Notes under the pieces: model-generated
The model's database searches: none
What the model was told of the DNA's origin: nothing
Seen by the model: the letters and a program-made list of their open reading frames with translations, nothing else
DNA from: Eledone cirrhosa
Taxonomy: Eukaryota
DNA: 64,000 bases
NCBI GenBank assembly: GCA_964016885.1
Contig: OZ024743.1
Span: 358,670,001-358,734,000, forward strand
Direction: 5' to 3'
Translations under genes and position numbers: made by a program
Shown here: positions 3,091 through 57,200 of the stretch, one piece after another
Layout of the letters: each line of letters opens with the position of its first letter
Position numbering within the stretch: the first letter of the stretch is position 1

Positions 3091-3205
3091 CGCACTTAGT
3101 GTTGAATTGATGTTTTTTTCTCTCTTTTCTCGCTTCGATAATATATTCTTGTGTATTAAGGTCCTTAGCAACAATTAATTGATTTCATTAATTGATTACA
3201 TTACT

Positions 3206-3615
3206 GGGCGGTGGATTGGCAGTATCGGTAGAGGGTCGGACGCCATGCTTTGACGCATAGAGTTACGGCCCTTGCCATTCTGAGTTCAAATCCCGCCGAG
3301 GTTAACTTTGCCTTTCATCCTTACGGGGTCGATAAAATAAAGTACCAGTAATGAACTGCGTAATTGCTGGCCTTGTGCCAAAAGTAGAAACAATTAATTG
3401 ATTATATTACTTCTATATATAACTCGGGCGGTGGATTGGCAGTATTGGTAGAGGGTCGGACGTCATGCTTTGATGCATAGAGTTATGGCCCTTTCCATTC
3501 TGAGTTCAAATCCCGCCGAGGTCAACTTTGCCTTTCATTCTTACGGGGTCGATAACATAAAGTACCAGTAATGTACTGGGTAATTGCTGGCCTTGTGCCA
3601 AAAGTAGAAACAATT
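3206..3615 (+). mobile_element. Two tandem full-length ~190-bp tRNA-derived SINEs (conserved central GCCTTTCATCCTTACGGGGTCGATAAAATAAAGTACCAG, Meta-domain-like)
   Basis: A-box-like TGGCAGTATCGG and B-box-like GAGTTCAAATCC; 3' end GGCCTTGTGCCAAAAGTAGAAACAATT; more than 12 copies in the window. Confidence 0.85.
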
Positions 3616-3768
3616 ACTTCTATATATAACTAAAAGTTTATATAGTTCGTTGACTATTCAACGAATTCAATTTTACAATAGATTAGAAGCACTCGACGGT
3701 TATTTATCTGGAGTATCTATAATATTATTCAAAATATTAATAACTGAGAAATATTATCATAACCAAAG

Positions 3769-7040: not shown

Positions 7041-7924
7041 TATATATATATATATATATATATATAACGATTTTTTGATGGTCGAGTTGGTAGCTGATGA
7101 TGTGGTGTTGATTCATTTGTTACGTGTGTGGTCACTGTTATGTGATGCAGTGTAATCAGAGGTTGCACGTGTGCAGGTAAGTGAGTAAGAGTTCATAAAG
7201 ATGATGATGATATGATAGTTCCTTGATCACGCAGAAAATGAATATATACGAAATATGCACAAGAATTATGGATGTTATTTGTTTGTTTGTAAAAGTAGAA
7301 TTAATGTCGTATTTACCAAGAAAACTTCATGAACTTCACTGGTTTGATTGAGCGAGAGACCAAGAGATAGAGATTGAGTGAAAGAGAGAGTGTAAGAGAA
7401 AGTAAGAGTCTGTGAGACCCCAAGAGGTCTCTAGAGAGCAATGGTTTACATGTTTACTTTATCAAGAACTGCTTCGAACTGCTGCCTGGTTGATCTAAGG
7501 CAGGCTATTTATCTATGTCGCTTCCTCTGTCCCCAAGCCTTGAGAACGAACAAAGAGCTGACCTCTAGAGACGGCCACTCTCAGACCTGTTGGCACCTGA
7601 AAGCAAATAACCCAGTTAATGACCGTTAAATGTCACCTAGGGGTCAAGGTGTGGAGAGATTTTGGTACATATGTATAACTGAAATCAAATAAACCTTGTC
7701 TTATTGTGCTTTTGCAATGATAAAATGCATCCAGTACACTCTGTTAAGTGTGTGGTGTTAGGAAGAGCAGTCACTCATAGACACTATACCTAAAGAATGG
7801 AATGTATTGACCAAGTCATGGTTCATCAATTTGGTTAGGAGGTGAATAACTTTAAGTACTGACTTAGTCTGTATCGGCCTGTCCAACCTGTGTTGGCATG
7901 AACACAATGGACATAGAATACCAA

Positions 7925-8452
7925 TAATTGTTTCTACTTTTGTCACAAGGCCATCAATTAGCTAGCCCCAGTGCATTACTGGTGCTTTATTTTAACAACC
8001 TCGACAGGATTTGAACTCAGAATGTAAAGGGCCATAACTCTGTACTGCAAAGCATGGTGTCTGACGCTCTACCGATACTGCTAATCCATCACCCTTAGAA
8101 TACCAATAATTGTTTCTACTTTTGGCACAAGGCCAGCAATTAATCCCAGTGTATTACTGGTACTTTATTTTATCGACCCCGTAAGGATGAAAGGCAAAGT
8201 TAACCTCGGCGGGATTTGAACTCAGACCGTAAAGCATGGCGTCCGACTCTCTACCGATACTGCCAATAATTGTTTCTACTTTAGGCACAAGGCCAGCAAT
8301 TATCCAGTGCATTACTGGTACTTTATTTTATCGACCCCGTAAGGATGAAAGGCAAAGTCAACCTCGGCGGGATTTGAACTCAGATCGTAAAGGGACGTAA
8401 CTATGCTGGAAAGCATGGCGTCCGACCCTCTACCGATACTGCCAATCCGCCA
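7925..8452 (-). mobile_element. Cluster of three head-to-tail copies of the same SINE
   Basis: AATTGTTTCTACTTTTGGCACAAGGCC ... CTACCGATACTGC repeated three times. Confidence 0.85.
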
Positions 8453-9625: not shown

Positions 9626-9695
9626 ATATATATAACAAATTTAATATAGAAATGGCTTCTACAGGACTAGAAATGTTTCATTCGAAGGAAATCAG

Positions 9696-9748
9696 GGCTT
9701 TCCTGATGATTTAGTTTGAATGAAACAGTTCTAGTATTGTAGAAACCA
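9696..9748 (+). ncRNA. Hammerhead-like motif within a fold-back element (related copies near 36110-36290 and 40300-40350)
   Basis: TTTC-CTGATGA-TTTAGTTTGAAT-GAAA-CAGTTCTAGTATTG-TA-GAAA. Confidence 0.5.
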
Positions 9749-9972
9749 TTAATATATTGAGAACCTTACTTACTGTGGTTATCCCTGATTAAACCTGGGA
9801 CTCTCACACACACACATACACACACATATATATAAGCAGAAGGGATATTCAATTTGTTGGTAATTCAACAAATATAAATGTTTATAACTGATTCAGAGCA
9901 CTCGACATATTTTCTGGAGTATAATATACAATGGTATTAAATAAATGGAAACTATATTTATAAAACCATATT

Positions 9973-10033
9973 TATTCTATTATATATATTTCAAGGGTAC
10001 CAACATTTTGGTACGCTATCGTCAGATAAAATA
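9973..10033 (-). ncRNA. Type I hammerhead motif
   Basis: TATTTTAT-CTGACGA-TAGCGTACCAA AATG TTGGTACCCTT-GAAA-TATATA-TA-ATAGAATA. Confidence 0.7.
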
Positions 10034-10601
10034 CGAAGTGTGTTTTATAAATTTTGACATAACCAAGGAGAATATACCTTAACGGTTCAAGTTTTCCTTG
10101 GATAGTGAAGGGCTAAGAGAAGAAAAGTCAGATATTTCAAATTATTAAGATGAGTATGCAAATGAGGTTTAGGTAAAAGGGCTGAAAAAAAACCCCGTTA
10201 TTTTAGACGCTATGGAAAATTTAAATAATTATGATAAGTTATTGTATGCGTAGGAAAGAAGAGAAAGGAATAAGAGCTAGCATTTACGTTAATTTGTGGG
10301 AAAAAAGTGGAATATGATTCCAGAGTTTAAATTTTAATTTATTATGGAACGGTACTAATGAAGTAATAGATTGGTTCAATAACATAAAATTAAAACATAA
10401 CAAAAAATTCATTCAAATGGATATTGTAAATTATTACTCCTCTATTACCCCTAGTTTACTTAATAAGGCACTTATCTACGCGTCTAAACATACAGACTTA
10501 TCTAGTGATGAAATGAATATAATTCTAAACGTAAAACACTAATTGAATTTAATAATCATCTCTGGACAAGAGCCGACAGAAAAAACAATTTTGATATCAC
10601 T

Positions 10602-11741
10602 ATGGGATCATCTGACTCGGCGCAACTTACGGACCTCGTTGGATTATTTATTAATAATGTACTGCATAGGAAAACGCCAGAGATGACCGGAGGTTTATAT
10701 CGTGACGATGTGTTGCTTCTAACTGAAAACCATAGCAATAGTGAAATTAATAGGAAAAGAAAATCCATAATACAATTTTTCAACAACTACAATCTTAAGT
10801 TAGAAATAGAGAATAACTACAAAATCGTTAACTTCTTAGATGTAACCTTAAACCTTAACACAGGTCTTTACTATCCTTTCCATAAAATTAACGACAATCT
10901 AAATTATGTAAGTTTCAATTCTAATCACCCTAGAAGTATTAAAAACACTATTGTCAATAGCGTCCAACAACGGATTTCACGCATCTCCGCTAATAAAAAT
11001 ATTTTTGATGATAAGGCTGAATATTATAATGAAGCTTTACATAGAGCAGGATACTCAAATAGAATTAAATACATAGATAACAATAACATGACATATCATC
11101 CTAGTATTAACTTAAACACTAAACCAAACAAAAAAACTAGAACTAGAAATATTATTTGGTACTCTCCCCCATTCTCATTAAGCGTTAAAACATCTTCAGC
11201 AAAGCTATTCTTTAAAGCACTAGATAAATGTTTTTCTAAAGCCCACAGATACCACTCTATTTTTAACAGACACTCTATAAAACTATCCTACTCTACTACT
11301 ATGAACATAGCACAAAATATAAATAGAATTAATAATATAAACTTAAATTTAAACCCTAACCGAACTAACCAAAATAGCAATAATAATATTTCTAACAACA
11401 ATATTCTGAATAATAGTACCGTTCTGAACAACAATAACTCCAGTAAATGTAACTGTAGAATCAAATCAAACTGCCCTTTACAAAATAATTGCTTAGACAA
11501 AAACGTAGTTTATAAATGCACAGTTAAAACTAGAGACAAAATGTTTAACTATGTTGGTGCCACTTCAACAAAATTTAAAGAACGCTGGAATAACTATAAT
11601 CATACATTTAAGAGATCTGATAAAAAATCTTCTACTTCACTTTCACATCTAATTTGGAATTTAAAAGACAACAATATAGACTATTCAATATTTTGGAGAA
11701 CGATTTCGAAAGCACCTGCATACCGAAATATGGCTTTTTAG
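10602..11741 (+). pseudogene. Penelope RT/GIY-YIG ORF fragment (379 aa; frameshifted upstream, deleted near the C-terminus)
   Basis: YRDD catalytic motif, FLDVTL, thumb SNHPRSI, CNCRIKSNCPLQNNC, NVVYKC/YVGATS; LEEMVTIL continues in another frame. Confidence 0.88.
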
Positions 11742-13504
11742 AAGAGATGGTCACCATTTTAAAAGGCTGCGTTGTTTTACGATTTAGAGGGGAGTTCGTT
11801 TCCCTAGCTTGGCTGCTAGAACATCTCTTCTATTTGTTGTTAGGTGTAGGTAAACAATTCAGCAAAAAGAACATACCTCGAGATTATATGTACATGACCA
11901 TTTTAATCAGAGCAATAAACAAAACAGGTTATCATATCAGTTGCTCCTTGATTGGTAATTCGTAATTATCATTTCGTGGCGGTGTTCAAATATCCCGTGA
12001 CCGCATGGTGTGATATCGCTGTTTCGCCACAGTGAAATGCGTCTGCTCGCATCAACACACAAAGTTGAAAAGGGAGTGTATTCAGCTACTGACGTCAGAA
12101 CTAAGGGCAGTTATCGACTGCCTCCAAAGTCAAAGCTAGGTGGCGTGATCTTTTACAGCTTTATCAAGATTCTGTAAATTGTTCATCGAAGAAATTTTTA
12201 TATAATTAACTGTCAAAACTCTATTAATCTCAGAACAGAATTATTTTCTTCTTGCAGACATCGCCAAAATTCTACGTTCAGAACTATTTTTAATTTATAA
12301 TATTCCTATACAACTTCAAAATGATCCTTTTTAAAAATTTAAATGTAAATTTTTAAATATTTTAAATATTTTTAAATATTTTTAATATTTCTAAATTTTT
12401 TTAATATCTCTAATATTTATAATATTTTTAATATATATATTTGATATTTTAATTTCCGACATTATTTTAATTCTGACATTATTTTTCTAAGGACACCCCT
12501 CTAAATATATGTTTTAGATGTAGATTGATAATCTTTAAATGACATTCTGAAAATTTATCCTTTTTACGATAGATCTTCGAAAAGCACATTACATTTTTCC
12601 TCTCTCTTTTTGTTATTCAAATATTCACACATCTTTCGACTAAAATAATGGATCTCACACAAAATAATATATAATTTTCTCTATATATTTTGAGTAAATC
12701 ACTCATCAAATTTAACGGTTAACAAACAAGATTGGAGTTATCTTTCCTTTCTCAATCGTGCAAACATAAACATATGTTTGATAATCTATATAACTTCATT
12801 AAATTAACAATATTCTGAAAACATTTTCAATGTTGAACAAAATTTTTGAATCCACAAATTGTTCTACTCTCACAACTTGAACCACCTATTTTTAAGTAAA
12901 ATACAAAATCAACATCCTTCGTAACTCATATTTGATATATAAACAACTTATAATTGTAAATTATCTCTATCTCTATAATACTAATACATACGCAATTATT
13001 AATCTATATAGATATTTATATACATATAACCTATCGTAATAAGATAAAAATACTCACAACTGTAATTCTTCATATAATCTAATTGATTATATATACAATA
13101 TTATAACTCATAATATAGGTAATTAAATTTAAATTTAAACTCTGGAATCATATTCCACCCCAACCCCCCAAATTAACGTAAATGCTACATCTTCCTTTCT
13201 CTTCTTTCCTACGCATACAATAACTTATCATAATTATTTAAATTTTCCATAGCGTCTAAAATAACGGTTTTTTTTCAGCCCTTTTACCTAAACCTCATTT
13301 GCATACTCATCTTAATAATTTGAAATATCTGACTTTTCTTCTCTTATCCCTTCACTATCCAAGGAAAACTTGAACCGTTAAGGTATATTCTCCTTGGTTA
13401 TGTCAAAATTTATACAACACACTTCGTATTTTATAGTCATTTACAAGACTCCCAATACTGGAATTGAATAATCAAGACCGTAGTTGTATGTCATATATCA
13501 AATC

Positions 13505-13575
13505 ATATATTTTGTCTGATGAAGACGTACTGAAAAAACAACACAGTACCTTTGAAATATATATAATAAAGTATA
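13505..13575 (+). ncRNA. Type I hammerhead motif
   Basis: ATATATTTTGT-CTGATGA-AGACGTACTG..CAGTACCTTT-GAAA-TATATA-TA-ATAAAGTATAT. Confidence 0.72.
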
Positions 13576-13635
13576 TATTTTGATTATGAGAATATTTTTC
13601 ATTTGTTAATATTTTGAATTATATATATATATATA

Positions 13636-13933
13636 TATGTAAGAATATTTTCGAAACAGCGAGCGGGTTTGAAATTATTATAAATGTAAGCTATCGCCGT
13701 ATTTTGACTAAAGAAATTATTTAGCCTGATAGTGGGGTTAAGAACCCTCGGAGAAATGGAAAAAGATGAGTATTGACGTACATGTACGCCAATACTCATC
13801 TTTTTCCATTTCTCCGCGGGTTCTTAACTCCACTATCAGGCTAAATAATTTCTTTAATTTCTTTAGTCAAAATACGGCGATAGCTTACATTTATAATAAT
13901 TTCAAACCCGCTCGCTGTTTCGAAAATATTCTT

Positions 13934-13937
<4 letters not shown>
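13636..13937. repeat. ~300-bp palindrome between (TA)n and (CA)n, related to the 39558-40272 family
   Basis: Arms are reverse complements around GTACATGTAC (about 13783). Confidence 0.85.
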
Positions 13938-15810: not shown

Positions 15811-18710
15811 CAGGCAAACATCTTAGTTATAATCTTTTCTGGGTAGGTAAGGATGATGGGTTAGGGGGAGTAGGCATTTTCTTGAGCTGGATCAATAAGA
15901 CAATAGAGGTAGTTTGAGTTAATAATCGAATAATTAAGCTTAGATTAGTTGTAGGCAGGAGACTACTGACAATCATCTCTGCCTATGCTCCCCAAGCAGG
16001 CCTAGGTAAAGAAGAGACAGACTCCTTTTACGAGCAACTATTACAAACAGCTGCAATGACAGAGGACGGAGACATCGTTATGCTAGCAGGGGACTTCAAT
16101 GGTCATATTGGACAGCCCTAGGATGGTTACACTGGGGTACATGGTGGGCACGGTTACGGCTCAAGAAATGGAGAAGGAGTGAGACTTCGTGAATTTTGTG
16201 ATGCAAGTACACTGACCATTTGCAACACTAACTTCCAGAAACCTGCCAACCACCTAATAACCTACAAATCAGGCGACCACATAAGCCAGATTGACTTCTT
16301 ACTAGTTAGGCAGCGGGACAGGCAGATGGTGTCAAATACCAAGGCATACCCTGGGGAAGAATGTACCCCCACAGCATAGGTTAGTCATTAGTGATATCTC
16401 AGTAAGCAAGAGATGGAATGAGACATACAGGAAGGTGTGGAGAAGAAAGGTCTGGAAGATAAATGACCTTTCACTAAATACAAATTTAGGAAAGCTCTTC
16501 AAGATGTGTATGACGAAAAAGAAGATGATTTAGAGTCGTATGACATAGATGATAACTGGAATTTCTCACGTGACAATTTACTGCAGGCTACAACCAGACA
16601 GAGAGTGACCTGGTGGTGGAACAGCACAGTAAATAGGGCTATTAGAGATAAAAGACTAGCATGGAAGGCTTGGAAAAAGGGTGGGAGTAGAAAAGGATAT
16701 ACAGCCGCAAAGAGAGAAGCTAGATGTCAGGTGTACATAGCACGCAGGGAGGCTGAGAGTAGGAGGTTTGCCAATGTTCTGCGACGGGAAGATCAGAGGC
16801 GTGCGGTGTTCCACATTGCAAGGCAGTATGTCAATGCAAATCAGGATGTTGTTGGAGATAAATGTGTCCGGAATGATGCCGGTGTACTTAGTGTCACGAA
16901 TGATCAGAAAAAGGAGGCCTGGAAATGTCATTATGAGAGACTGATGAATGTGGAGAACGAATGGGAGAGAGAGAAATTACCCTCAGTAGATCAGACAGAG
17001 GGACCAGCTATTGAGATTGATGAATATAGGGTCCAAGAGGCGATTAGAGAAATGAAAAATGGTAAGGCTGCTGGACCATCGGGAATAGTTGCTGAGATAC
17101 TGAAGGCATCAGGGGACGTAGGCACTAAACTGGTTGCAAGCATCATCAATCAGGCTATATATGGTGGTGTCATACCCAAAGACTGGTGCAGCAGTATTCT
17201 CATAAATTGCTACAAAGGTAAAGGGGATGCTCTGCAGAGGAGCAATTATAGGGGTATAAAACTGATAGATCAGGTTATGAAAGTGGCAGAAAGGATATTA
17301 GCACAACTAATTAGAGAAAGTGTCAAACTAGATGAGATGGAGTTTGGTTTTGTGCCTGGGAAAAGTACAACAGATGCCCTCTTCTTGGTGAGACAATTAC
17401 AAGAGAGGTTCTTAGAGAACAATAAGCCTCTATACTTAGCCTTTGTTGACCTAGAGAAGGCCTTTGATAGGGTACCCCGATCTGTCATCTGGTGGTCCCT
17501 AAGAAAACTAGGTGTTGAGGAATGGCTTGTGAGGACAGTGCAAACTTTGTACAGAGGTGCTGTCAGTAAAGTCAGGGTAGGAATGGAGTTTAGTGAGGAA
17601 TTCCAGATACAAGTAGGAGTACATCAAGGTTCGGTCCTCAGCCCGCTCTTGTTCATTATAGTCCTCCAAGCCATAACAGAGGAGTTTAAGACTGGCTGTC
17701 CATGGGAACTTCTCTATGTTGACGATCTGGTTCTTATAGCAGAATTAGTAAAGGAGCTAGAGAATAAATTCTGGCCATGGAAAAAGCAGTTGGAAGCAAG
17801 AGGGCTGAGAGTGAACCGAGCTAAGTCAAAAGTGTTGATGAGTAGAAAAGAGGACAAAACTCTGATTCCATCAGCGAAATAGCCATGTTCGATATGCAGA
17901 AAAGGAACTGGCATAAATTCTATAAAATGTACACAATGCAGATCCTGGGTACACAAGAGATGTAGTGGGATAACAGGCAAACTAACAGGTAGGGAGAAAT
18001 ATGTATGCAGTAGACGTACAGGGAAATTAGACAGTAGAAGTCGCATTGATAGACACATTTTTCAAATGCAGGCGGGTGCTATAGAAGTGGTGGATAGCTT
18101 CCGGTACCTAGGAGATAAGATTAGCATGGAAGTGGGGTGTTCCGAGGCCATAGTATCTAGAATAAGGACGGGTTGGAAGAAGTTTAGGGAGCTGTTTCCT
18201 CTGCTGACGAAGAAGGGTTTCTCCCTGCATACAAAAGGCCGGCTATATGGTGCCTGTGTGAGAAGCGCGATGCTGCATGGTAGTGAGACCTGGGCAGCAA
18301 CTACAGAGGATGCGCGATGGCTGGAGAGAAATGAGGCAAGCATGCTCTGTTGGATGTACAATGTCAATGTGCGTGAACGACTCAACATGGATGTGTTGAG
18401 AGAGAAACTGTGTCTGAGAGGGATAGAATGTAGTGTACGAGAGAGAAGACTGCGGTGGTATGGACATGTGATGCGCTTGGAGGATGACCGATGGGTGAAG
18501 AAGTGCCAGGAAATGCCAGTTGAAGGAAGACATGGTAGAGGTAGACCACGAAAAACATGAGCGGAGGTGGTGAGAATAGACCTCAGATAGCTGAAGCTCA
18601 CGGTGGGGATGACGAAGGACCGTGACAAGTGGAGAGATGCTGTGCTGAATAAGACCCATCCCACCCTTGCAAGCAGGGAAAAGCGGACGTAAAATGATGA
18701 TGATGATGAT
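15810..18710 (+). mobile_element. RTE-clade LINE, near full ORF but disrupted
   Basis: APE endonuclease (SAYAPQ, AGDFNGH, SQIDF), RT (AFVDLEKAFD, GVHQGSVLSP, LYVDD), Cys-rich CxxC..CxxC..HxxC, RRLRWYGHV..GRPRKT, (ATG)n tail. Confidence 0.93.
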
Positions 18711-24770: not shown

Positions 24771-24952
24771 TAATTGTTTCTACTTTTGGCACAAGGCCAG
24801 CAATTATCCCAGTGTATTACTGGTACTTTATTTTATCGACCCCGTAAGGATGAAAGGCAAAGTTAACCTCGGCGGGATTTGAATTCAGAATGGCAAGGGC
24901 CGTAACTCTATGCGTCAAAGCATGGCGTCTGATCCTCTACCGATACTGCCAA
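24771..24952 (-). mobile_element. SINE copy
   Basis: Reverse complement of the 3206-3395 consensus. Confidence 0.8.
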
Positions 24953-25402
24953 CTGTTCACACCTGTGTAGCGTTAGCTGGCCTCTAATGAGGGTCATGTT
25001 ACTGTTCACACCTGTGTAGGGTTAGCTGGCCTCTAATGAGGGTCATGTTACTGTTCACACCTGTGTAGGGTTAGCTGGCCTCTAATGAGGGTCATGTTAC
25101 TGTTCACACCTGTGTAGGGTTAGCTGGCCTCTAATGAGGGTCATGTTACTGTTCACACCTGTGTAGGGTTAGCTGGCCTCCAGTGAGGGTGATGTTACTG
25201 TTCACACCTGTGTAGGGTTAGCTGGTCTCCAGTGAGGGTCATGTTACTGTTCACACCTGTGTAGGGTTAGCTGGTCTCCAGTGAGGGTCATGTTACTGTT
25301 CACACCTATGTAGGATTAGCTGGCCTCCAGTGAGGGTGATGTTACTGTTCACACCTATGTAGGGTTAGCTGGCCTCCAGTGAGGGTGATGTTACTGTTCA
25401 CA
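24953..25402. repeat. Minisatellite, 9.2 x 49 bp
   Basis: Unit CTGTTCACACCTGTGTAGGGTTAGCTGGCCTCTAATGAGGGTCATGTTA at an exact 49-bp period. Confidence 0.95.
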
Positions 25403-26799: not shown

Positions 26800-26855
26800 G
26801 TGAGGTTTTTTTTACAAAATGAAAAATAATCGAGGTGTCCTACACGAGTGAAAGT

Positions 26856-27506
26856 ATAAAGAAAAAGAGATGAAATCGAAAATGCAACTGGAGTCTTATT
26901 TTAAAAAAAAATATATATATTTATTTGGTTCCTTTACCGGTTTCGCAGTTCTTCTGCTTTTCAAAAGGTGAGTTGAGATGGAGGGTCTGTGGTTTTTCTC
27001 ACATCTGGTTGGTCTCTGAATGTTACTTGTTTTATATGGAAAAAGTGGCTCGAAATGCCAGGTTTTTCGAGAAGTAATTTCATTGGTTTGTCAATAATTA
27101 TAATAAATTTCGCGCCAGTTCGCGTTACAATAGTTCTTCACATAAGGGGGGGGGGGGGGGGGGGGGGTTGTCACAGGTTGTTTTTTCATATATGAGTGAC
27201 AACCTGTGACAACCCCCCCCTCTTATTTGAAGAACTATTGTAACGCGAACTGGCGCGAAATTTATTATAATTATTGACAAACCAATGAAATTACTTCTCG
27301 AAAAACCTGGCATTTCGAGCCACTTTTTCCATATAAAACAAGTAACATTCAGAGACCAACCAGATGCGAGAAAAACCACAGACCCTCCATCTCAACTCAC
27401 CTTTTGAAAAGCAGAAGAACTGCGAAACCGGTAAAAGAACCAAATAAATATATATATTTAAAAAAAAAATAAGACTCCAGTTGCATTTTCGATTTCATCT
27501 CTTTTT

Positions 27507-27513
<7 letters not shown>
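26856..27513. repeat. ~660-bp near-perfect palindrome flanked by (TA)n
   Basis: Arms of about 320 bp, spacer 27181-27199; mirror ORFs 26989+ and 27379- give near-identical peptides. Confidence 0.92.
26931..26968 (-). ncRNA. Minimal hammerhead motif, U3-A8 core variant (twin at 27400-27437, + strand)
   Basis: CCTT-TTGAAAA-GCAG AAGAA CTGC-GAAA-CCGG-TA-AAGG. Confidence 0.62.
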
Positions 27514-27719: not shown

Positions 27720-28278
27720 TTATTAAAACAACAGATTAAAGTTTAAGCAAAGAATCGCTGCTTTCACCCTTAACGGGATCTTCTGAAACTAACAAAGTCA
27801 ATCTGTAAACGCAGAACTGGATATTTCAAAAAACGTTGCAACCGGAGGAAGACAGGAAGACGATACTTTGGTTCGTGGTAACGTTCGCTGGCAAAGAACG
27901 GGAAAAAACGAATAATACGTCATTAATAGGAGCGGTGAAAAACAATTACGCGCAAAGACAAAACCACGTATATGGTATAAAAGAGGTCGTAGACTAATGT
28001 TTTCTTAGGTGGTGCATAGAGACGTTCTCTGGCAATGAACGAAAAAACGAAGATAATAAGTCATATGTGGAGCGTGAAGAACAAAAGCACGCAAAGACAA
28101 AACCACGTAAATGGTATAACAGAAGTCGTAGACTAAGATTCTAACTAGGAGACCAAATGAATCTCCGCTACAGAGTTAAGAACAAAGTAAATAAATACAA
28201 TACAGAAGAAATAGAAACAAATAAATACATACACGCAAACAGATACGTACATACACAAGCATACGCAAAACCTTATAC

Positions 28279-36073: not shown

Positions 36074-39000
36074 GTGTGTGTGTCTGTGTGTATATATACC
36101 TTTATTTTATATAGAAATGACTTCTATGTGTATGTATAAGATATTCCTGTTGATTCCATATGAAATGAAACAGTTCTAGTGCTATAGAAGTCATTTCTAT
36201 ATAAAATAAAGATGCCTATACTCTACTAACGTATTGAGTACTTTTTTAACTGTGATCACCTCCTGTTACTCATCGGGAATCCACCCATTCATCATCATCA
36301 TCATCATCGTTTAACGTCCATATTCCATGCTTGCATGGGTCTGGACGGGAGTTTTCCCACTTGAGGCAAGAGTGGTTGTCTTGCTCACATAGGACTGTCT
36401 TGCGGGTTTTCTACGGTTGGATGCCCTTCCTAACACCAACCACATTTACAGTGTGGGACTGGGAGGTTTTTACCATGTTGCCTACACGGCCACATTACAG
36501 CGTGGACTGTGTGTTTTTTTTTGTCGTGACACCTACACGACCTCATTTGTTTCGGCCTGGATGTTGTGTCACCAACATAACTTTACATTGAAAGGGGTGG
36601 TGTGGATGGGGTGGGGGTGGTGGGACGGGGGGTGTATTTTGTTAGAGGTGCCTACTGACTGTAGTAGGTTTTACTTTGTATTTAGGTAAGGCGGGTCTTC
36701 TCTATTACTGTGTAGCGCCAAAGATCTCGGTCCAGTGACATTGTCTTGGAGAGGTGTAAGTGTTTGAGGTCGGAATTTATTCAGTTGTCCCAGGTTTTTC
36801 TGGGTCTGCCTACTCTGTGGCTACCGTCTATTTTTATTGCCCTGCACTTTTTTATACAGCTGTCGTCTTTCATGCGCATCACGTGACCATACCAACGTAG
36901 CCTTTATATATATATATATATATTGGAAAATGTGTTAGATCCTTGGTACAGTTAGGTACATTTGAAAAAAAGGAAAATAATGATTTCACTTGTAGTTGGT
37001 ATTCTATAACAATTTAATGTTGTAATTTTACAATTTTACTGTGTAGATTTAATAAGTCTTTTGTTAACTTTGGTGGAAATAAAAAAAAAAAATCTGGTTA
37101 ACTTTCCAGAGAAATGTTACTATAGAAGGCTAATAAATGTAGAGAATGAATAGGAGGAAGAGAGACTACCCTCAACTTACCCAACAGAGGGACCAGTTAT
37201 TGAAAGTGACAGTTATAGGGTCAAAGAAGCAATCTAGGAGATGAAGAATGGTAAAGTCGCGGGACCATCAGAGGTAGTTGCTGAGATTCTAAAAGCACCA
37301 GGAGAAGTGGGAACTGAACTAGTAACCCACATAATCAATCAGGTAATACAGGACGGTGTCATACCCAATGATTGGCACAGCAGTACAATTATAAATAGCC
37401 ACAAAGGTAGAGGTGCTGCTCTAGAAAGGAGCAACTACAGAAGAATAAGATTGATGGACCAAGTTATGAAAGTGATGGAAAGAGTTCTAGCACAGCTAAT
37501 TAGGAAAAGAGTAAAATTAGACAAGATACAGTTCAGTTTTATACCTGAGAAAAGTATTACAGATACCCTCTTTTTAGTGAGACAACTACAAGAGAGTTCT
37601 TTGCTAAAAATAAGCTGCTATATCTAGCTTTTGTTGATCTAGAAGAAAACCTTTGACAGAGTACCTCAAACTATTATCTGGTGGTCCATAAGAAAATTAG
37701 GTGTAGAAGAATGGCTTGTGAGAGCAGTGCAAGCCATATACAGAGACACTGTCAGTAATGTGAGAGTAGGAAGTGAGTTCAGTGAGGAATTCAAAGTGCA
37801 GGTAGGAGTTCATCAGGGTTCGGTTCTCAGACCACTGTTGCTCATCATAGTTCTCCAGGCCACAACAGGGAATTTTATGACTGGCTGTCCACAAGAACTT
37901 TTCTATGCAGATGATCTGTTCCTTACAGTTGAATGAAAGAACTAGAGAATAAGTTCTGACTATGGAAACAGAATTTGGAATCAAAAGAGCTGAGAGTAAG
38001 CTTAGGCGAAACTAAAGTGCTAGTAAGTAGGAAAGAAGATAGGATCTTGATTCTCTCAGGGAAGTGGCCTTGCTCAATATGTAGAAAGGGATAAACTCTA
38101 TATGATGTACACAATGTAAATCTTGGGTACACAAGAGATGTAGAATAACAAGTAGACTAACAGGAAGGGAAGACTTTGTATGTAAAAGATGCACAGGGGT
38201 AATTGAGGGGAAGAGTGTCAGTGATATAAACCTTTTCCAATCACATGAAGGATCCATAGAAGTGGCTGATAGCTTCTATGTAGGTGACCTAATTAGCAGC
38301 AGAGGAGGGTGCTCTGAGAGCACAGTAGCTAGAATAAGGATAGGATGGAAGAAGTTACTCCTACTGCTGATAACAAAAGGTTTCTCCCTACATATAAAAG
38401 GATGGGTTATGACGCCTGCGATGCTGCATTGAAACATGGGAGTGACTGTAGAGGACATGCATAGACTGGAGGGAAATGAAGCAACCATGCTTCGTTAGAT
38501 GTGCAATATAAATAAAAGAGAAAGGCAGAGGCTGGATGAATAAGGGAGAAACTAGATTTAAGAGGAATCTGAAGTGGAATGCAAGAGAAAAGACTGTATT
38601 TGTATGGACATGTGATGTGCATGAAAATGATGATCGCCGAGTGAAGAAGTGCCAAGAAACCCCAGTGGTAGAAAGCTGCAGTAGAGCTAGACAAAGGAAG
38701 ACCTGTGCAGAGGTGGTTAGAACTCATCCCAAATTGCTGAGACTCACAGAGGAGATGACGAAGGAATGTGATGAGTGGAGAGATGCTGTGGAAAAAACAG
38801 ATGTAAAAACGATGATGATGATGATAATGATGATTATATATGTAATGGTTTCTTATATAGGCACAAGGTCAGCATATTTTGGGGAGGGGGAAGTCGATTA
38901 AATCGACCCCAGTGCGTGACTGGTACTTTATTTTATCGACCCTGTAAGGATGAAAGGCAAAGTTAACCTCGGTGGGATTTGAGCTCAGATCATAAAGAGC

Positions 39001-42000
39001 GATAACTCTATGCTGCAAATCATGGCCTCGACCTTCTACCGATACTGTCAATCCACCATATAAATAATAGAAATGAATATGCTGGTTTGCTTCCCACACC
39101 TAACAGTAAGTTTCCTTTACATATAAGTAACAATTCTAAATATCTAGTAAAAGATGATAATGGGTGATAATGGACAAAGCCATAGACTTTTAATTGGTCA
39201 GTGGGAGGCAGGGAATGAATGTGAAAGTGGGTGCGTGTGTGGGGGCAAGTGAACTGGTTGGTGTGATTGGTAGGGGAAGTGGTGGATGGAATATACATAT
39301 GTATATAATTACAAATGTACATAAATATACATACATACAAATGTATATCACTTATGCAGGTGCTTACATATATGTAAATAAATATGTATGTATATACACA
39401 AACACACATATGCATATAAAAGACATACAAAGAAATATATTAAAATAATATATAAATATTTAAAAAGGGGGAGAGGATGGTAGTGCAAACAAGAGGTATG
39501 CTTCAACATGTGCACATGGGAAGGCGGGTCTTATGTAGAAGTCATTTCTATATAAAATAAAGATATATATAGCTTTCACCGTATTTTTGACTAAAGGAAT
39601 TTTAGCCTGATAATGGGGTTTAGAACCCTCAGATAAATGGAAAAAGATGAGTATTGACGTACATGGGAGTCGAACCCACATCTTTGGTTATCACGACCAG
39701 TGTGCTACCATTACACCAACACATCACCCATCTCTTTCCATTCAAATTAGAAGCTACATTCTTAGCGAGTTTAAATGGCAAGTAAGTATGTTTTGAAACA
39801 GTGAGCAGGTTTGAAATTAGAAAATAGAATAGCTTTCACCGTATGTTTGACTAAAGGAATTTTACCCTGATAATGGGGTTTAGAACCCTCAGATAAATGG
39901 AAAAATTATCAGGCTAAAATTCCTTTAGTCAAAAATACGGTGAAAGCTATTCTATTTTCTAATTTCAAACCTGCTCACTGTTTCAAAACATACTTACTTG
40001 CCATTTAAACTCGCTAAGAATGTAGCTTCTAATTTGAATGGAAAGAGATGGGTGATGTGTTGGTGTAATGGTAGCACAGTGGTTGCGATAACCAAAGATG
40101 TGGGTTCGACTCCCATGTACGTCAATACTCATCTTTTTCCATTTATCTGAGGGTTCTAAACCCCATTATTAGGCTAAAATTCCTTTAGTCAAAAATACGG
40201 TGAAAGCTATTCTATTTTCTAATTTCAAACCTGCTCACTGTTTCAAAACATACTTACTTAAAGATATATATATTTCAGACAGAAAGTTATTTGTCACTAC
40301 TATGGCTTCTACAGGACTAGAACTGTTTCATTCATATGAAATTATCGGTATATATATATATATAATAATAATAATAATAAATGTGGAGACTGAAATCCAA
40401 AGAGGGCTCGATAAGGATAAATATATATCGAATATATAAGAACCCTAGAGCAAATATTTATTAAAATAACAGATTAAAGTTTAAGCAAAGCATCTCTGTT
40501 TTCACCCTTAATGGGATTTTCTGAAACAGGTTTCAGAAGATCCCGTTAAGGGTGAAAGCAGTGATTCTTTGCTTAAACTTTAATCTGTTATTTTAATAAA
40601 TATATATATATAAATTATAAAATTGTAAAATTATCAAATTAAATTGTTATAGAATACCAATTACAAGTGAAGTCATTCTTTTCCTTTTTTCAAATATATA
40701 TATATATATATATACATTGATATATACCTGTAGTTTGGAGCCTATTTGGTATAAATACTAATGTAGTTATCTGGCACATAAGAGATATTATGAGACTTCG
40801 TTGGTCAGTTCTAGTATATATATATTTAACCTTGAATATAAATACTACCAACTGAATGTCAAATGTGTGTCTGATAATGTAGTATTTATTCTATTTATAT
40901 CTGGGTTTACCCCAACTCTATAATTTTAGCTATTATCCCACTTTTGTTCAGCTTATGTCATTAAAATGTAACAGTGAGAGTATTATTGATACAAAGATAC
41001 TGATAAATATACATAAAAAATTTGATTGATAATCTGGGATCAATACTGAACCAGTTTCATACAGAAATTACAAAAATTCTTATGCTTAGTCATGTAGAGT
41101 GTAAGGTAGGGTACAACATTGTCAGTATGTAATTTATTGATGTTTCACCTGCTCATGCCATTGAATCATGAATATACAGTATGCAGGTAATCAAAACATG
41201 AAACTTATGTTATAATGATTGTCATCTCTGTTCATCTGTCACAGCGATGATGTCGCTGCACCATTTCTAAAGAATTGTTTTTATGAGTTAAAAGCATGTG
41301 TGCAAAAGAAAAGTTTTATAGTCGAGGTTTTTTTTATATTTACGATAAATATTCTATTTGCCAGCTACATCTATATCTCACCATCTCTGTTTATCTCTCC
41401 TTCTTTCTCCCTCTCTCCATTTTCTTTCTCTCCCCCTTTCTCTTTCTATCCCCATCTCTATATATATATGCCTACCTCCCTTCTGATTACTGAATGCTGA
41501 AGCTGGTGCATTACTGCACCAGCTCCTGCAATTCTTGCACTACTTCAGCCTCCAGCTTTCCATCACTCATGAACACAGCCCTGGGATACTTGAACTTCTC
41601 TACCTGCTTCAGTGGAACTCCATTTAAATGTAGCATGCACTGCATAAGCTTCCTTTAGAGGACAAGTATCTCAGTTTTCACAACACTGATTTTCATTCCA
41701 GCTAAGCAGCACTTGGCATTAAACCTATCGAGTGCAAATTGGAGATCACTTTCTGTTGAGTTAAGTAACACCATGCTGTTTATAAAATTCCAGCCAACTG
41801 ATTTTACATAAGCCAGTCATAATACAACTCCCAACCTGGCTGTGCATGTAAATCCTGTTAATGTAAATAATGAACAGGAGAGGTGACATTACGCACCGTT
41901 GACGGAGTCCGACTCCCATATTGAATGGTTTCAATTTAGCACCGTTTATCTGAACACAAATACTCAGGCATTCATATAGAGATAGAGCTGTCCTGCTAGG

Positions 42001-54249: not shown

Positions 54250-57200
54250 TTATATTTAATTTGTTGGGATACAACAAGCAAATATTTTTATAACTGATAT
54301 AAAGCACTCAACAAATTATTGGAGTAAATATACAATATATTAACAAATGGAAACTATATTTATAAAACCATATTTATTTCATTATACATATTTCAAGGAC
54401 ACCAAAGCAAATTATGGTGCGCTTTCATCAGATAAAATATAATATAGATCAGTTTTATAAACAAATATTGACGTACCCTTAAAGAATGCGACCATGTCGG
54501 TTGGAGGCTCCCGGATAGTGGGGTTACTAATTTTATTATTGGTCTATTATGCAAATTAGTGTTGGAGAGGTTTAAATCCCAGTACATTTAAATTAAGCCG
54601 TTGGAATAGGGAAAAAAAGAAAAAGAAAAAGAAAGAGCAAACCCAAAGAAGGAAAACAAAAGAAAGAGAAAGAGAGAAAACCCTAAGTGAGAGAGTGTTG
54701 TATTAACGTAATTTATGAGATGATGAAGCGAAAAAATAAATATATAGTGGATGAATTACGCGGAGTAAATAAAGCGTGGATAAATAAATAAATAATAATA
54801 ACCGGAGAATTTTATGTAATGTTTAAATTTGATTAAATGTTTAATTTATCAATTAAAAATGTCAGTTAAATTATTGAGATCTATAAATTAAAAATTGAGA
54901 TCTATATATTGTTAAAAGAATATATACACATATATATATTATTAAAAAAATATTATTAAAATATATGTTATTATTACATAACCATATATAAATTTATTAT
55001 TAATAATCATCAACCAACAATTAATTATTAATTTTTCAATTAATTATCAATAAAAAATAATAATAAATAAAAAATTTTATGTTTAAAATATAGGAATGTT
55101 TCTAAACCCATGGAAATTCAGAGATTTTACCGAAGAATAATCTCTTCTTCGTTATAGCAATACAGCGTGAAGGAAATTAAGTGATTTATTTGTAATTTAG
55201 ATAGCTCTAAGGATTAAATGTTATCAAGGTTAAGATGATAAAAAAAGTTAAGATTATAAAAAAAATCTTATATTATTTTATAGCAAGTTATAATTTTATA
55301 AATTTTATATATTTTATAAATCCACCTGTTATACAGTTGTGACTGTTAAAATATAAGTTTGTTTACTATAATGTCTTAATGTTTAAAGTTTTTCATAAGA
55401 ATATATCTAAAGCATAAACCGTTTATAAATTTGTTTATAAAACTGATCTATATTATATTTTATCTGATGATAAAATCCCGCCGAGGTTGACTTTGCCTTT
55501 CATCCTTACGGGGTCGATAAAATAAAGTACCAGTAATGCACTGGGTAATTGCTGGCCTTGTGCCTAAAGTACAAACAATTATATTTTATCTGATGAAAGC
55601 GCACCATAATTTGCTTTGGTGTCCTTGAAATATGTATAATGAAATAAATATGGTTTTATAAATATAGTTTCCATTTGTTAATATATTGTATATATATATA
55701 TATATATATATATTATTATTATTATTATTATTGTTATTATTGGTAGAGTGTCAGACACCATGCTTTGCAGCATAGAGTTACGACCCTTTACATTACGGAG
55801 TCGATAAAATAAAGTACTAGTAATGCATTGGAGTAATTGCTGGCCTTCTGCCAAAAGTAGAAACAATTATTATTATTATCAGGATTCATATGCACAAAGA
55901 TTCATTGCACAACTTTAGGTTACATGACAAGTATTCATAATGTTTTTCATATAAATAATATTGAGAAATACTTATTTTATCTAATTCTAGACAAAAGAAT
56001 GCCTTCCATTTACTACACTCTGTTAATTGCCATGATGTATGGAATTGGTACTTTCTGGGCTGTCATGCCTCTTTTGGGATGGGGCGAGTAAGTATTCTTT
56101 GACATTTTTTTCCACAAACATAATATTTTGAACGGAATAAACAGGATCATGCTGGTTTCAATGAGAAGTATTCAGTTGTTTGATCAACTCAATTATTTGT
56201 TCATTGAATTAACATGTAAGTGCCTGACTATTTCATAGCCAAGCTGTGACGTTCTATTAATTTATGTATGAATATACAAATAACATTTATAAAATGTAGA
56301 ATTTCCATTAGTCTTGCTAGTTTAAATTATACTCTTTATGGTTAGAACGTTTTCTTTCTCCCCTTCTCTATTAGTATTTCTCCTTCCCCTCTATCTCTCT
56401 TGTTCTTTATCCCTCTCCCTCTCTCACAGACACATACATACTCTCATTTTACCATTATCTTCATTTATTTTACAGGTATGGGGTTGAACCAACTGGAACT
56501 TCTTGCACCATCTCCTACACCAATGCCAATGAAAGTTACCAGTCTTTAATCATGTCTATGGTCATTGTAACTTATTCTTTCCCAATCATCGTATCTTGCT
56601 ATGCTATATCCAAGGCATGGTCAGCCCTTGGTAATATTCCTGACAGTGAGAAGGAAAAAGACAGGGATTTGTTATCTGAAGAGCAGCTAACTGCTGTAAG
56701 TGGCTTGTTTCTTATATTTATTTCATTCTAAATTGGGTAGAGAGAAAGAGAGACACAGGGAAGAGGTAAAAGCATGAGAACCATCCAGTGATTTATTTTA
56801 CTGTTTAGTTAGAGAGGAAAGTGCAGCAACTATGACACTTTTCAGGGCCTCCAAAAAAACTAGTGGGAAGGTGAGATGAATATACTCACAAATCAGTGAC
56901 CTGGCCCAGATGTTTGCAACAGAATAGACTCTGTTGAAGGCACACAAAGGATGTTGAACTGAGAGACAGATTAATTGTAACTCTGGATTTACTCAATCTA
57001 TATTTCTTTACCTGCTAAGGTTAGAGTGATTATCTTCATTGTCATCATTTTACATCTACTTTTCCATGCTGACATGCTTTTAATAGGTTGTTACAGACAA
57101 AGTCAGTACATAATTGAAACTACTGTGCTTCTAGACACTCAATTCAATTTTCAGTGTTATGGAAATTCTTCAATTAGTAGCTTTTTTCTTTCCTGGTATT

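What the first reader, a model, noticed from the sequence alone, without database searches (positions are those of the whole stretch)
39558..40272. 260-nt circularly permuted unit containing a tRNA-like Pol III cassette, inserted as an inverted >1-unit duplication
Seen in sequence: the left arm (39571-39905) and right arm (39905-40260) each contain about 1.3 copies of a 260-bp unit in opposite orientations, flanked by the 14-bp direct repeat TAAAGATATATATA. The unit contains a 71-nt tRNA-like sequence with strong A/B boxes and a T5 terminator. It is internal rather than at a 5' head, unlike a normal SINE. Inference: more than one unit per arm fits reverse transcription around a circular RNA or from a tandem source, and the inversion is Penelope-like. 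This would be a tRNA-bearing PLE-mobilised element. I found no canonical hammerhead in it, so processing might use RNase P/Z sites or another ribozyme.
Basis: partly seen in the sequence, partly recalled or inferred. Interest (0 to 1): 0.75.

Follow-up and report, generated by a model that had tools for sequence, protein, structure and literature searches.

The report
tRNA-bearing, ribozyme-free Penelope hitchhiker repeat
This is one copy of an abundant 260-base non-coding repeat that has a tRNA-like fold in its middle and no recognisable ribozyme, and its insertions show the pattern that Penelope-like jumping genes leave, so it is likely a passenger of those elements, copied from a tandem or possibly circular RNA.

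Summary
Two back-to-back arms (337 and 355 nt, 98% alike) of a 260-nt unit lie inside a 14-nt target duplication. The arrangement is not unique. A second, 79-85% identical copy at 13639-13935 is also a head-to-head pair, and both its arms end where the right arm ends. In public runs the family is abundant, has a sharp 3' end followed by (TA)n, and fades smoothly towards the 5' side with no step at the tRNA start. The unit-to-unit joint occurs in three organisms. It is therefore neither a tRNA-headed SINE nor a tRNA gene array. The tRNA-sense strand folds throughout (z -3.6; antisense +0.7), a 19-bp helix closes the tRNA, and a weaker helix is predicted across the unit joint. No hammerhead was found. 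Best reading: a non-autonomous passenger of Penelope-like elements (PLEs), copied by two primings from a multi-unit or circular RNA. The partner enzyme, Pol III transcription, RNA circles and RNase P/Z cutting were not shown. Closest known kinds are animal retrozymes and Schistosoma SINE-like repeats, both with hammerheads. Verdict: new variant of a known kind.

The parts
39558..39571 (+). left copy of the 14-nt target-site duplication (its last 3 nt also fit the arm end: microhomology)
39569..39905 (-). left arm, 337 nt: unit positions 135-260 then 1-211 in tRNA sense; its outer end stops 49 nt short of the family's 3' end
39655..39725 (-). tRNA-like module of the left arm
   Evidence: (43 bits)
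39905..39999 (+). upstream partial unit of the right arm (positions 166-260), equivalent to a pseudo-LTR; the joint to the left arm is at 39905, with 1 nt shared
40000..40259 (+). one whole 260-nt unit; 40259 is the family's fixed 3' end
40015..40023 (+). strand predicted to pair with 40248-40256 of the preceding unit (helix Z, 8 of 9 pairs, probability about 0.4); it forms only across the unit joint or between the ends of a monomer
40035..40145 (+). 19-bp helix W (40035-40053 with 40127-40145; 3 G.U pairs) enclosing the tRNA-like module
40054..40124 (+). tRNA-like module of the right arm; anticodon loop non-canonical and variable in the family
40061..40071 (+). A-box-like motif
   Evidence: sequence; consensus recalled
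40103..40113 (+). B-box motif; no variant among the 40 variant rows shown (72 rows not shown)
40134..40138 (+). T5 run, a possible Pol III terminator, inside helix W; also present in copy B
40151..40190 (+). two hairpins (40151-40163; 40172-40190), stems kept and loops changed in copy B
40197..40241 (+). helix Y, with one two-sided change (T-A to C-G) in copy B
40259..40272 (+). right copy of the 14-nt target-site duplication
39536..39563 (+). target: 3' tip of another repeat family that carries a hammerhead motif; the duplication includes its last 5 nt
13639..13935 (.). copy B: head-to-head pair of two arms of about 150 nt, both ending at the family's 3' end, next to (TA)n and (CA)n; joined at a short palindrome in the tRNA 3' end
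10512..11741 (+). remnant ORF (RT C-terminal part, then a GIY-YIG-like domain) between inverted ends with hammerheads; an example of the enzyme class proposed as partner, not shown to be the partner

Best explanation
This is a copy of an abundant non-coding 260-nt repeat family with a fixed 3' end and an internal tRNA-like fold, likely inserted by the reverse transcriptase and endonuclease of a Penelope-like element (PLE) acting in trans on a multi-unit or circular RNA. Step 1 (inferred): a tandem source is transcribed, likely by Pol III from the A/B boxes of an upstream unit with read-through of T5, into RNA longer than one unit. Step 2 (predicted fold, with substitution support): the RNA folds on the tRNA-sense strand, and helix Z near the joint would mark where copying starts. 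Step 3 (inferred from the 14-nt duplication): the enzyme nicks both strands of a TA-rich target 14 nt apart. Step 4 (arm geometry shown, mechanism inferred): each nick primes its own cDNA, one at the usual 3' end and one 49 nt further in, at a 3-nt microhomology. The left arm cannot be a fold-back copy of the right arm, because it runs from unit position 135 through the joint to 211 while the right arm holds only positions 166-260 upstream of its joint. Step 5 (inferred): both cDNAs cross one unit joint, stop in or near the structured region, and are joined head to head.
For: Fixed 3' end: both arms of copy B and the right arm end at the same place. X1 summed depth falls 3.1-, 10.7- and 28-fold across the bins from 40240 to 40287. 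(TA)n beyond the end: T at 40261 in 151 of 156 X9 reads. 5' truncation: smooth fall of 0.60-0.88 per 12 nt from 40120 to 40012, with no step at the tRNA start. Partial tandem: the exact 40259-to-40000 joint is seen in 4 X1 contigs, 1 X7 contig (organism D) and 35 X9 reads from 10 starts; the 40259-to-40002 variant in 16 X9 reads; a divergent joint in X4 contig 9 (organism B). X9 mean depth at the unit start is 77. Recurrent inversion: opposite-strand joint at 40114/40118, as in copy B, in 2 X1 contigs and 26 X9 reads from 8 starts, with a matching loose end in X4. These are the PLE marks in PMC8557442 (passages): 5' truncation, partial tandems, an inverted 5'-truncated copy, a tail at one end, (TA)n bias. 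PMC11167929 (parts 1-2 of 4) shows a PLE protein cutting and extending both strands and starting inside the RNA at two sites, with hammerhead cleavage not needed. Hammerhead-bearing repeats in this window have the same ends-outward layout. RNA strand and fold: circular fold z -3.55 sense against +0.68 antisense; 58 Watson-Crick, 10 G.U and 1 mismatch in 69 pairs; copy B left arm changes 5 of 79 paired against 15 of 63 unpaired positions (p 0.004).
Against: No autonomous element sharing the unit's 3' end was found in the window, and no genome is held, so the partner is inferred from insertion geometry alone. The 49-nt end offset is longer than the 30-40-nt tail in PMC8557442, is absent in copy B, and makes no depth step at 40210. 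T5 should stop Pol III before the 3' half. Family-wide variants do not clearly avoid paired positions (14 of 35; p 0.10), and 8 of the 14 break a pair when read against this copy's partner, unphased. Helix Z has pairing probability of only about 0.4. The G.U count is partly built in, because the helices were chosen by folding that strand. Summed contig depth is not copy number, and X9 is RAD data whose read ends sit at AATT sites.
Confidence: 0.7

Rival explanations
1. A tRNA-derived SINE moved by a LINE (RTE-like elements are present in the window), with a (TA)n tail, a tandem source and twin-priming inversions.
For: A/B boxes, fixed 3' end, 5' truncation and a 14-nt duplication are all SINE-like. 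A LINE-type RT ORF lies at 16467-17882.
Against: 54 nt of family sequence lie upstream of the tRNA with no depth step at the tRNA start. Units join end to start without tail or duplication in organisms A and D. No 3' sequence is shared with the window's LINE remnants, which end in (TGA)n-type runs. Copy B has two complete 3' ends pointing outward, which twin priming of one LINE-type RNA does not give (recalled mechanism).
Confidence: 0.13
2. A foldback or MITE-like DNA transposon whose long terminal inverted repeats happen to contain a tRNA-like piece.
For: Copy B is a near-perfect palindrome with the same end on both sides, in TA/CA microsatellite.
Against: In the finding the two outer ends differ by 49 nt, the arms are unequal and the centre is asymmetric. 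Coverage decays from the 3' end, direct tandem joints exist, and conservation follows an RNA fold on one strand.
Confidence: 0.08
3. The same PLE passenger, but cut by an unrecognised self-cleaving ribozyme in the unit (for example a degenerate hammerhead around helices Y and Z), which would make it a true retrozyme.
For: Copy B has GAAA just before helix Z, and helix Z ends in GUA, which is the right half of a hammerhead (motif recalled). Hammerheads with variant cores occur in other families of this window.
Against: No matching core lies before the preceding stem. The descriptor scan found no hit with up to 2 core mismatches on the tRNA-sense strand under strict stems, and its best antisense hit (1 mismatch, minimal stems) is matched by 13 of 60 shuffles under relaxed settings. 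Rfam gave no ribozyme at E up to 10, although it also missed the variant hammerhead at 40530-40603.
Confidence: 0.07
4. A tandem tRNA-gene array fragment or an assembly artefact.
For: Rfam and ARAGORN call a tRNA. The locus's own inversion joint was not among the rows shown.
Against: The anticodon loop differs between the arms and from the family majority, and a serine anticodon sits on a short variable arm. The arms differ at six sites, carry a unique target duplication, and the layout recurs in copy B and in reads.
Confidence: 0.02

Closest known systems
Animal non-LTR retrozymes (PMC7229834, passages; bioRxiv 10.64898/2026.07.22.740005, parts 1-2 of 5)
   Same: Non-coding units of a few hundred nt in tandem, AT-rich, proposed to be non-autonomous derivatives of PLEs.
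   Different: Defined by a type I hammerhead in each unit and by circular RNAs; PMC7761336 (passages) says they seem to have no promoter. Here no hammerhead was found, a tRNA-like A/B-box module sits inside the unit, and circles are untested.
SINE-like hammerhead repeats of Schistosoma (PMC6765202, passages; the name Sm-alpha is recalled)
   Same: A Pol III promoter inside a tandem unit, where the upstream unit drives transcription of the next.
   Different: Monomers are released by a hammerhead, which this unit lacks; the passages read report no Penelope-type two-arm insertions for them.
Non-autonomous Chlamys PLEs such as MRC1, and Naiad insertions (PMC8557442, passages)
   Same: Pseudo-LTR partial tandems, inverted 5'-truncated partner copy, microsatellite targets, no canonical hammerhead.
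   Different: Those usually share 3' sequence with an autonomous family, and the passages read mention no tRNA-like module. No shared 3' end was found here within the window.
TRIMp3 elements Helenus, Ajax, Cassandra (PMC10886601, passages)
   Same: A small-RNA-derived Pol III promoter placed inside the repeated part of a non-autonomous element.
   Different: They are LTR elements with a primer-binding site and a polypurine tract; this one is 5'-truncated, 3'-anchored and two-armed.

Membership tests
PLE-type insertion | fixed 3' end with variable 5' truncation | tested here: met
PLE-type insertion | partial tandem: full unit preceded by the 3' part of another | tested here: met
   (joint in organisms A, B, D)
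PLE-type insertion | inverted 5'-truncated copy at the 5' side, 3' ends outward | tested here: met
   finding, copy B, opposite-strand joints
PLE-type insertion | 30-40-nt tail on one end only | tested here: inconclusive
   49-nt offset in the finding, none in copy B, no depth step at 40210
PLE-type insertion | (TA)n or AT-rich target | tested here: met
   151 of 156 X9 reads
Autonomous PLE | RT plus GIY-YIG ORF | tested here: not met
   no ORF of 120 aa or more overlaps the insertion
Non-autonomous PLE derivative | 3' end or pseudo-LTR shared with an autonomous PLE | tested here: inconclusive
   none in the 64-kb window; no genome held
Non-LTR retrozyme | type I hammerhead in each unit | tested here: not met
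   the scan found 5 of 7 control motifs
Non-LTR retrozyme | tandem non-coding unit of about 170-400 nt | tested here: met
   260 nt
Non-LTR retrozyme | accumulates as circular RNA | not testable with these tools
   no RNA holder listed
tRNA-derived SINE | tRNA-derived head at the 5' end | tested here: not met
   54 nt upstream belong to the unit; no depth step
tRNA-derived SINE | internal A and B boxes | tested here: met
   sequence only, consensus recalled
tRNA-derived SINE | 3' tail shared with a LINE | tested here: inconclusive
   none in the window; genome not available
Functional tRNA gene | canonical, conserved anticodon loop consistent with the body | tested here: not met
MITE / foldback DNA transposon | same terminus at both ends of every copy | tested here: not met
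   met in copy B, not in the finding

The most novel reading that the evidence does not exclude
A ribozyme-free class of retrozyme: the tRNA-like module is both the Pol III promoter and the host-nuclease (RNase P) cut site that turns multimers into 260-nt monomers. Helix W then holds the two ends together as a nicked circle for ligation, and PLE reverse transcriptase copies round the circle. Unchecked notes on unrelated tRNA-bearing units in other animal genomes would make it a class that recurs across phyla.
Probability: 0.2. Interest if true: 0.8.

Novelty: new variant of a known kind. Interest (0 to 1): 0.55.

Why it matters
tRNA-derived passengers are well known for LINEs (SINEs) and for LTR elements (TRIMp3), and hammerhead-bearing passengers are proposed for PLEs. 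A tRNA-bearing, hammerhead-free PLE passenger would fill the missing combination. Nine literature searches listed no such description; Repbase, Dfam and most subscription papers could not be checked. A 260-nt substrate with a fixed start of copying is also a small test system for an open question: how PLEs make partial tandems and inverted pairs (template jumping, multimeric RNA or circles). Such families would probably be labelled SINE, MITE or tRNA pseudogene by annotation pipelines.

Tried and rejected
No whole genome is held, so copies could not be catalogued. No RNA holder was listed; this says nothing about expression. A viral-contig scan with an 18-nt D-arm pattern gave 120 loci; the best BLAST matches cover only the tRNA arms, and the 60 tRNAs classified at the match were of mixed types, 26 Gln, so the parent tRNA is unassigned. 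A metagenome scan with a 21-nt pattern gave 5 loci, all chance matches of 21-26 nt. Rfam below threshold gave mostly miRNA-type hairpin matches caused by the inversion, and no ribozyme family. A hammerhead-like three-way junction on the antisense strand was considered and dropped: its stem I has zero pairing probability in the sense fold, and a common variant at 40035 breaks it. X9 read ends at 40031, 40178-40181 and 40221-40224 were rejected as element ends because all are AATT sites. A fold-back origin of the left arm was rejected on geometry. The D-stem was mis-specified and corrected; the paired-position count (138) did not change. Pfam and PDB gave no hit for the ORF at 10512-11741; its PLE identity rests on the ESM Atlas, visible motifs and the flanking hammerheads. 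The supplement of PMC13282606 holds tables but gave 0 matches to an 18-nt piece of the unit; its repeat library and the supplements of the other papers were not seen and may list this family under another label. Look-ups of earlier findings by sequence and by place gave nothing, nor did three word look-ups.

Full report
Observation. The window is AT-rich animal DNA full of microsatellites and mobile elements. I recall its commonest SINE-like repeat as octopus-type, but no call confirms the organism. The finding is as described. The left arm is 39569-39905 (337 nt) and the right arm 39905-40259 (355 nt); they are inverted, 98% alike and built on a 260-nt period. Only six sites vary among the copies. 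The 14-mer at 39558-39571 recurs at 40259-40272 and nowhere else in the window. Its first five letters are the 3' tip of another repeat family that carries a hammerhead motif and lies just left of the insertion, so it is a true target duplication and not only shared TA repeat. Each arm has a 71-nt tRNA match of 41-43 bits, with A and B boxes and a T5 run 10 nt downstream.

A family, not a single event. A second copy lies at 13639-13935: two arms of about 150 nt, 85% and 79% identical to the unit, head to head. Both arms end where the right arm of the finding ends, next to (TA)n and (CA)n. No genome is held, so I laid 4 of the 11 runs listed on 40000-40340. In X1, 9611 contigs were laid, and in X9, 6345 reads. 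Part of these belong to a different repeat at 40300-40335, but depth over the unit itself is about a thousand times that of the flank at 40276-40299; this is not a copy number. Depth collapses past 40259 (3.1-, 10.7- and 28-fold in successive bins) and declines smoothly towards the 5' side (0.60-0.88 per bin) with no step where the tRNA begins. Beyond the end, 151 of 156 X9 reads have T at 40261, that is (TA)n. The exact end-to-start joint is in 4 X1 contigs, 1 contig of organism D, and 35 X9 reads from 10 starts. A 2-nt variant adds 16 reads, against a mean depth of 77 at the unit start, so copies that reach the start mostly continue into another unit's end. A contig of organism B has the same order with a longer, different joint. 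An opposite-strand joint at 40114/40118, as in copy B, is in 2 X1 contigs and 26 X9 reads from 8 starts. The finding's own inversion joint is not among the rows shown (31 not shown). X9 read ends at AATT sites reflect the RAD library and were ignored.

RNA anatomy. Folded as a circle, the tRNA-sense strand scores z -3.55 (1 of 100 shuffles as good) and the antisense +0.68. A 19-bp helix (W) pairs the sequence upstream of the tRNA with its trailer and contains the T5. Two hairpins and helix Y follow. Helix Z pairs the last part of one unit with the start of the next, with probability about 0.4. Of 69 pairs, 58 are Watson-Crick, 10 are G.U and 1 is a mismatch. Copy B's left arm changes 5 of 79 paired and 15 of 63 unpaired positions (p 0.004), with one two-sided change in Y; its two changes in Z keep or gain pairing with this copy's partner strand. 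Against this, the 35 variable positions taken from the rows shown do not clearly avoid pairs (14 paired, p 0.10), and 8 of those 14 break a pair when read unphased. The anticodon loop differs between the arms and from the family majority, while no B-box variant is among the rows shown. This fits a promoter or a structural signal better than a decoding tRNA.

Ribozyme. Rfam found no ribozyme in the region at E up to 10, but it also missed a variant hammerhead next door, so it is a weak test. A descriptor scan that found 5 of 7 control motifs in the window gave nothing on the tRNA-sense strand under strict stems and only shuffle-level hits otherwise (13 of 60 shuffles as good). A half-hammerhead around helix Z remains a minor lead.

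Mechanism. The left arm runs from unit position 135 through the joint to 211; the right arm runs from 166 through the joint to 260. The left arm cannot have been copied from the right arm's DNA, so there were two primings, one at each nick of a 14-nt stagger. Each template was longer than one unit; if both arms came from one linear RNA it was at least 647 nt long (inference). PMC8557442 (passages) lists 5' truncation, partial tandems, an inverted truncated copy, a one-sided tail and (TA)n bias as PLE marks, and reports non-autonomous tandem PLE passengers such as MRC1. PMC11167929 (parts 1-2 of 4) shows a PLE protein cutting and extending both strands at AT-rich DNA and starting inside the RNA at two sites, without needing hammerhead cleavage. 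The window holds a remnant ORF with RT-like and GIY-YIG-like neighbours in the ESM Atlas (no Pfam or PDB hit) between inverted, hammerhead-bearing ends, and other two-armed repeats with TA flanks. I therefore read the element as a PLE passenger (0.7). The partner is not identified: nothing else in the window shares its 3' end. Transcription by Pol III is inferred from the boxes and needs read-through of T5. Circle and linear multimer cannot be told apart from DNA, and no RNA run was listed.

Comparison and novelty. It works like an animal non-LTR retrozyme (PMC7229834, passages; 2026 preprint, parts 1-2 of 5; PMC7761336, passages) but fails that family's defining hammerhead test. It shares the internal Pol III promoter logic of the Schistosoma SINE-like repeats (PMC6765202, passages), again without the hammerhead, and of TRIMp3 LTR elements (PMC10886601, passages). 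It is not a tRNA-headed SINE. Two cephalopod repeat papers (PMC13282606, passages and supplement search; PMC8967140, passages) list SINE and Penelope classes only. Nine searches listed no tRNA-bearing PLE passenger; repeat databases could not be checked. Four unchecked AI notes from other genomes describe units of the same design, and none was found as a sequence look-alike. They are leads, not support.

Verdict. Observation confirmed; interpretation partly supported; new variant of a known kind; interest 0.55. The boldest open reading, a ribozyme-free circle made by host tRNA-processing enzymes, has probability about 0.2 and would deserve 0.8.

Noticed in passing
window 40454-40603 and 27724-27790: A palindromic repeat family whose arm folds as a hammerhead with one change in the core (A at position 4); found by the scan at 40530-40605. 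It may be an active variant ribozyme.
   Followed up: partly
window 26855-27513: Head-to-head pair of 301-nt arms, each with a hammerhead-like motif of the U3-A8 type read by eye (missed by the scan), with a TA run at the right end.
   Followed up: partly
window 9950-13580: Penelope-like remnant with inverted ends, hammerhead motifs at 10025 (-) and 13516 (+), and an ORF at 10512-11741; about 1.3 kb of other sequence lies between the ORF and the right arm.
   Followed up: partly
window 40302-40342, 39536-39563, 36091-36213, 9627-9749: Pieces of a very abundant hammerhead-bearing family (highest depth), with recurrent opposite-strand joints near 40333.
   Followed up: partly
window 54325-55696: Inverted 119-nt arms with matching canonical hammerhead motifs at 54431 (-) and 55590 (+).
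   Followed up: no
window 16467-18560 and 37111-37934: RTE-like LINE remnants (Pfam RVT_1); a (TGA)n-type run follows the first at about 18690.
   Followed up: partly
window 3166-3616 and 7914-8267: Two-copy tandems (220 and 182 nt) of the window's commonest SINE-like repeat, so partial tandems occur in that family too.
   Followed up: no
window 24952-25402: 49-nt minisatellite, 9.2 copies, 97% alike.
   Followed up: no
X1, bins 40120-40155: Depth peaks here at 2-3 times that of the 3' part, which suggests further subfamilies that share the tRNA 3' end and helix W but differ downstream.
   Followed up: no
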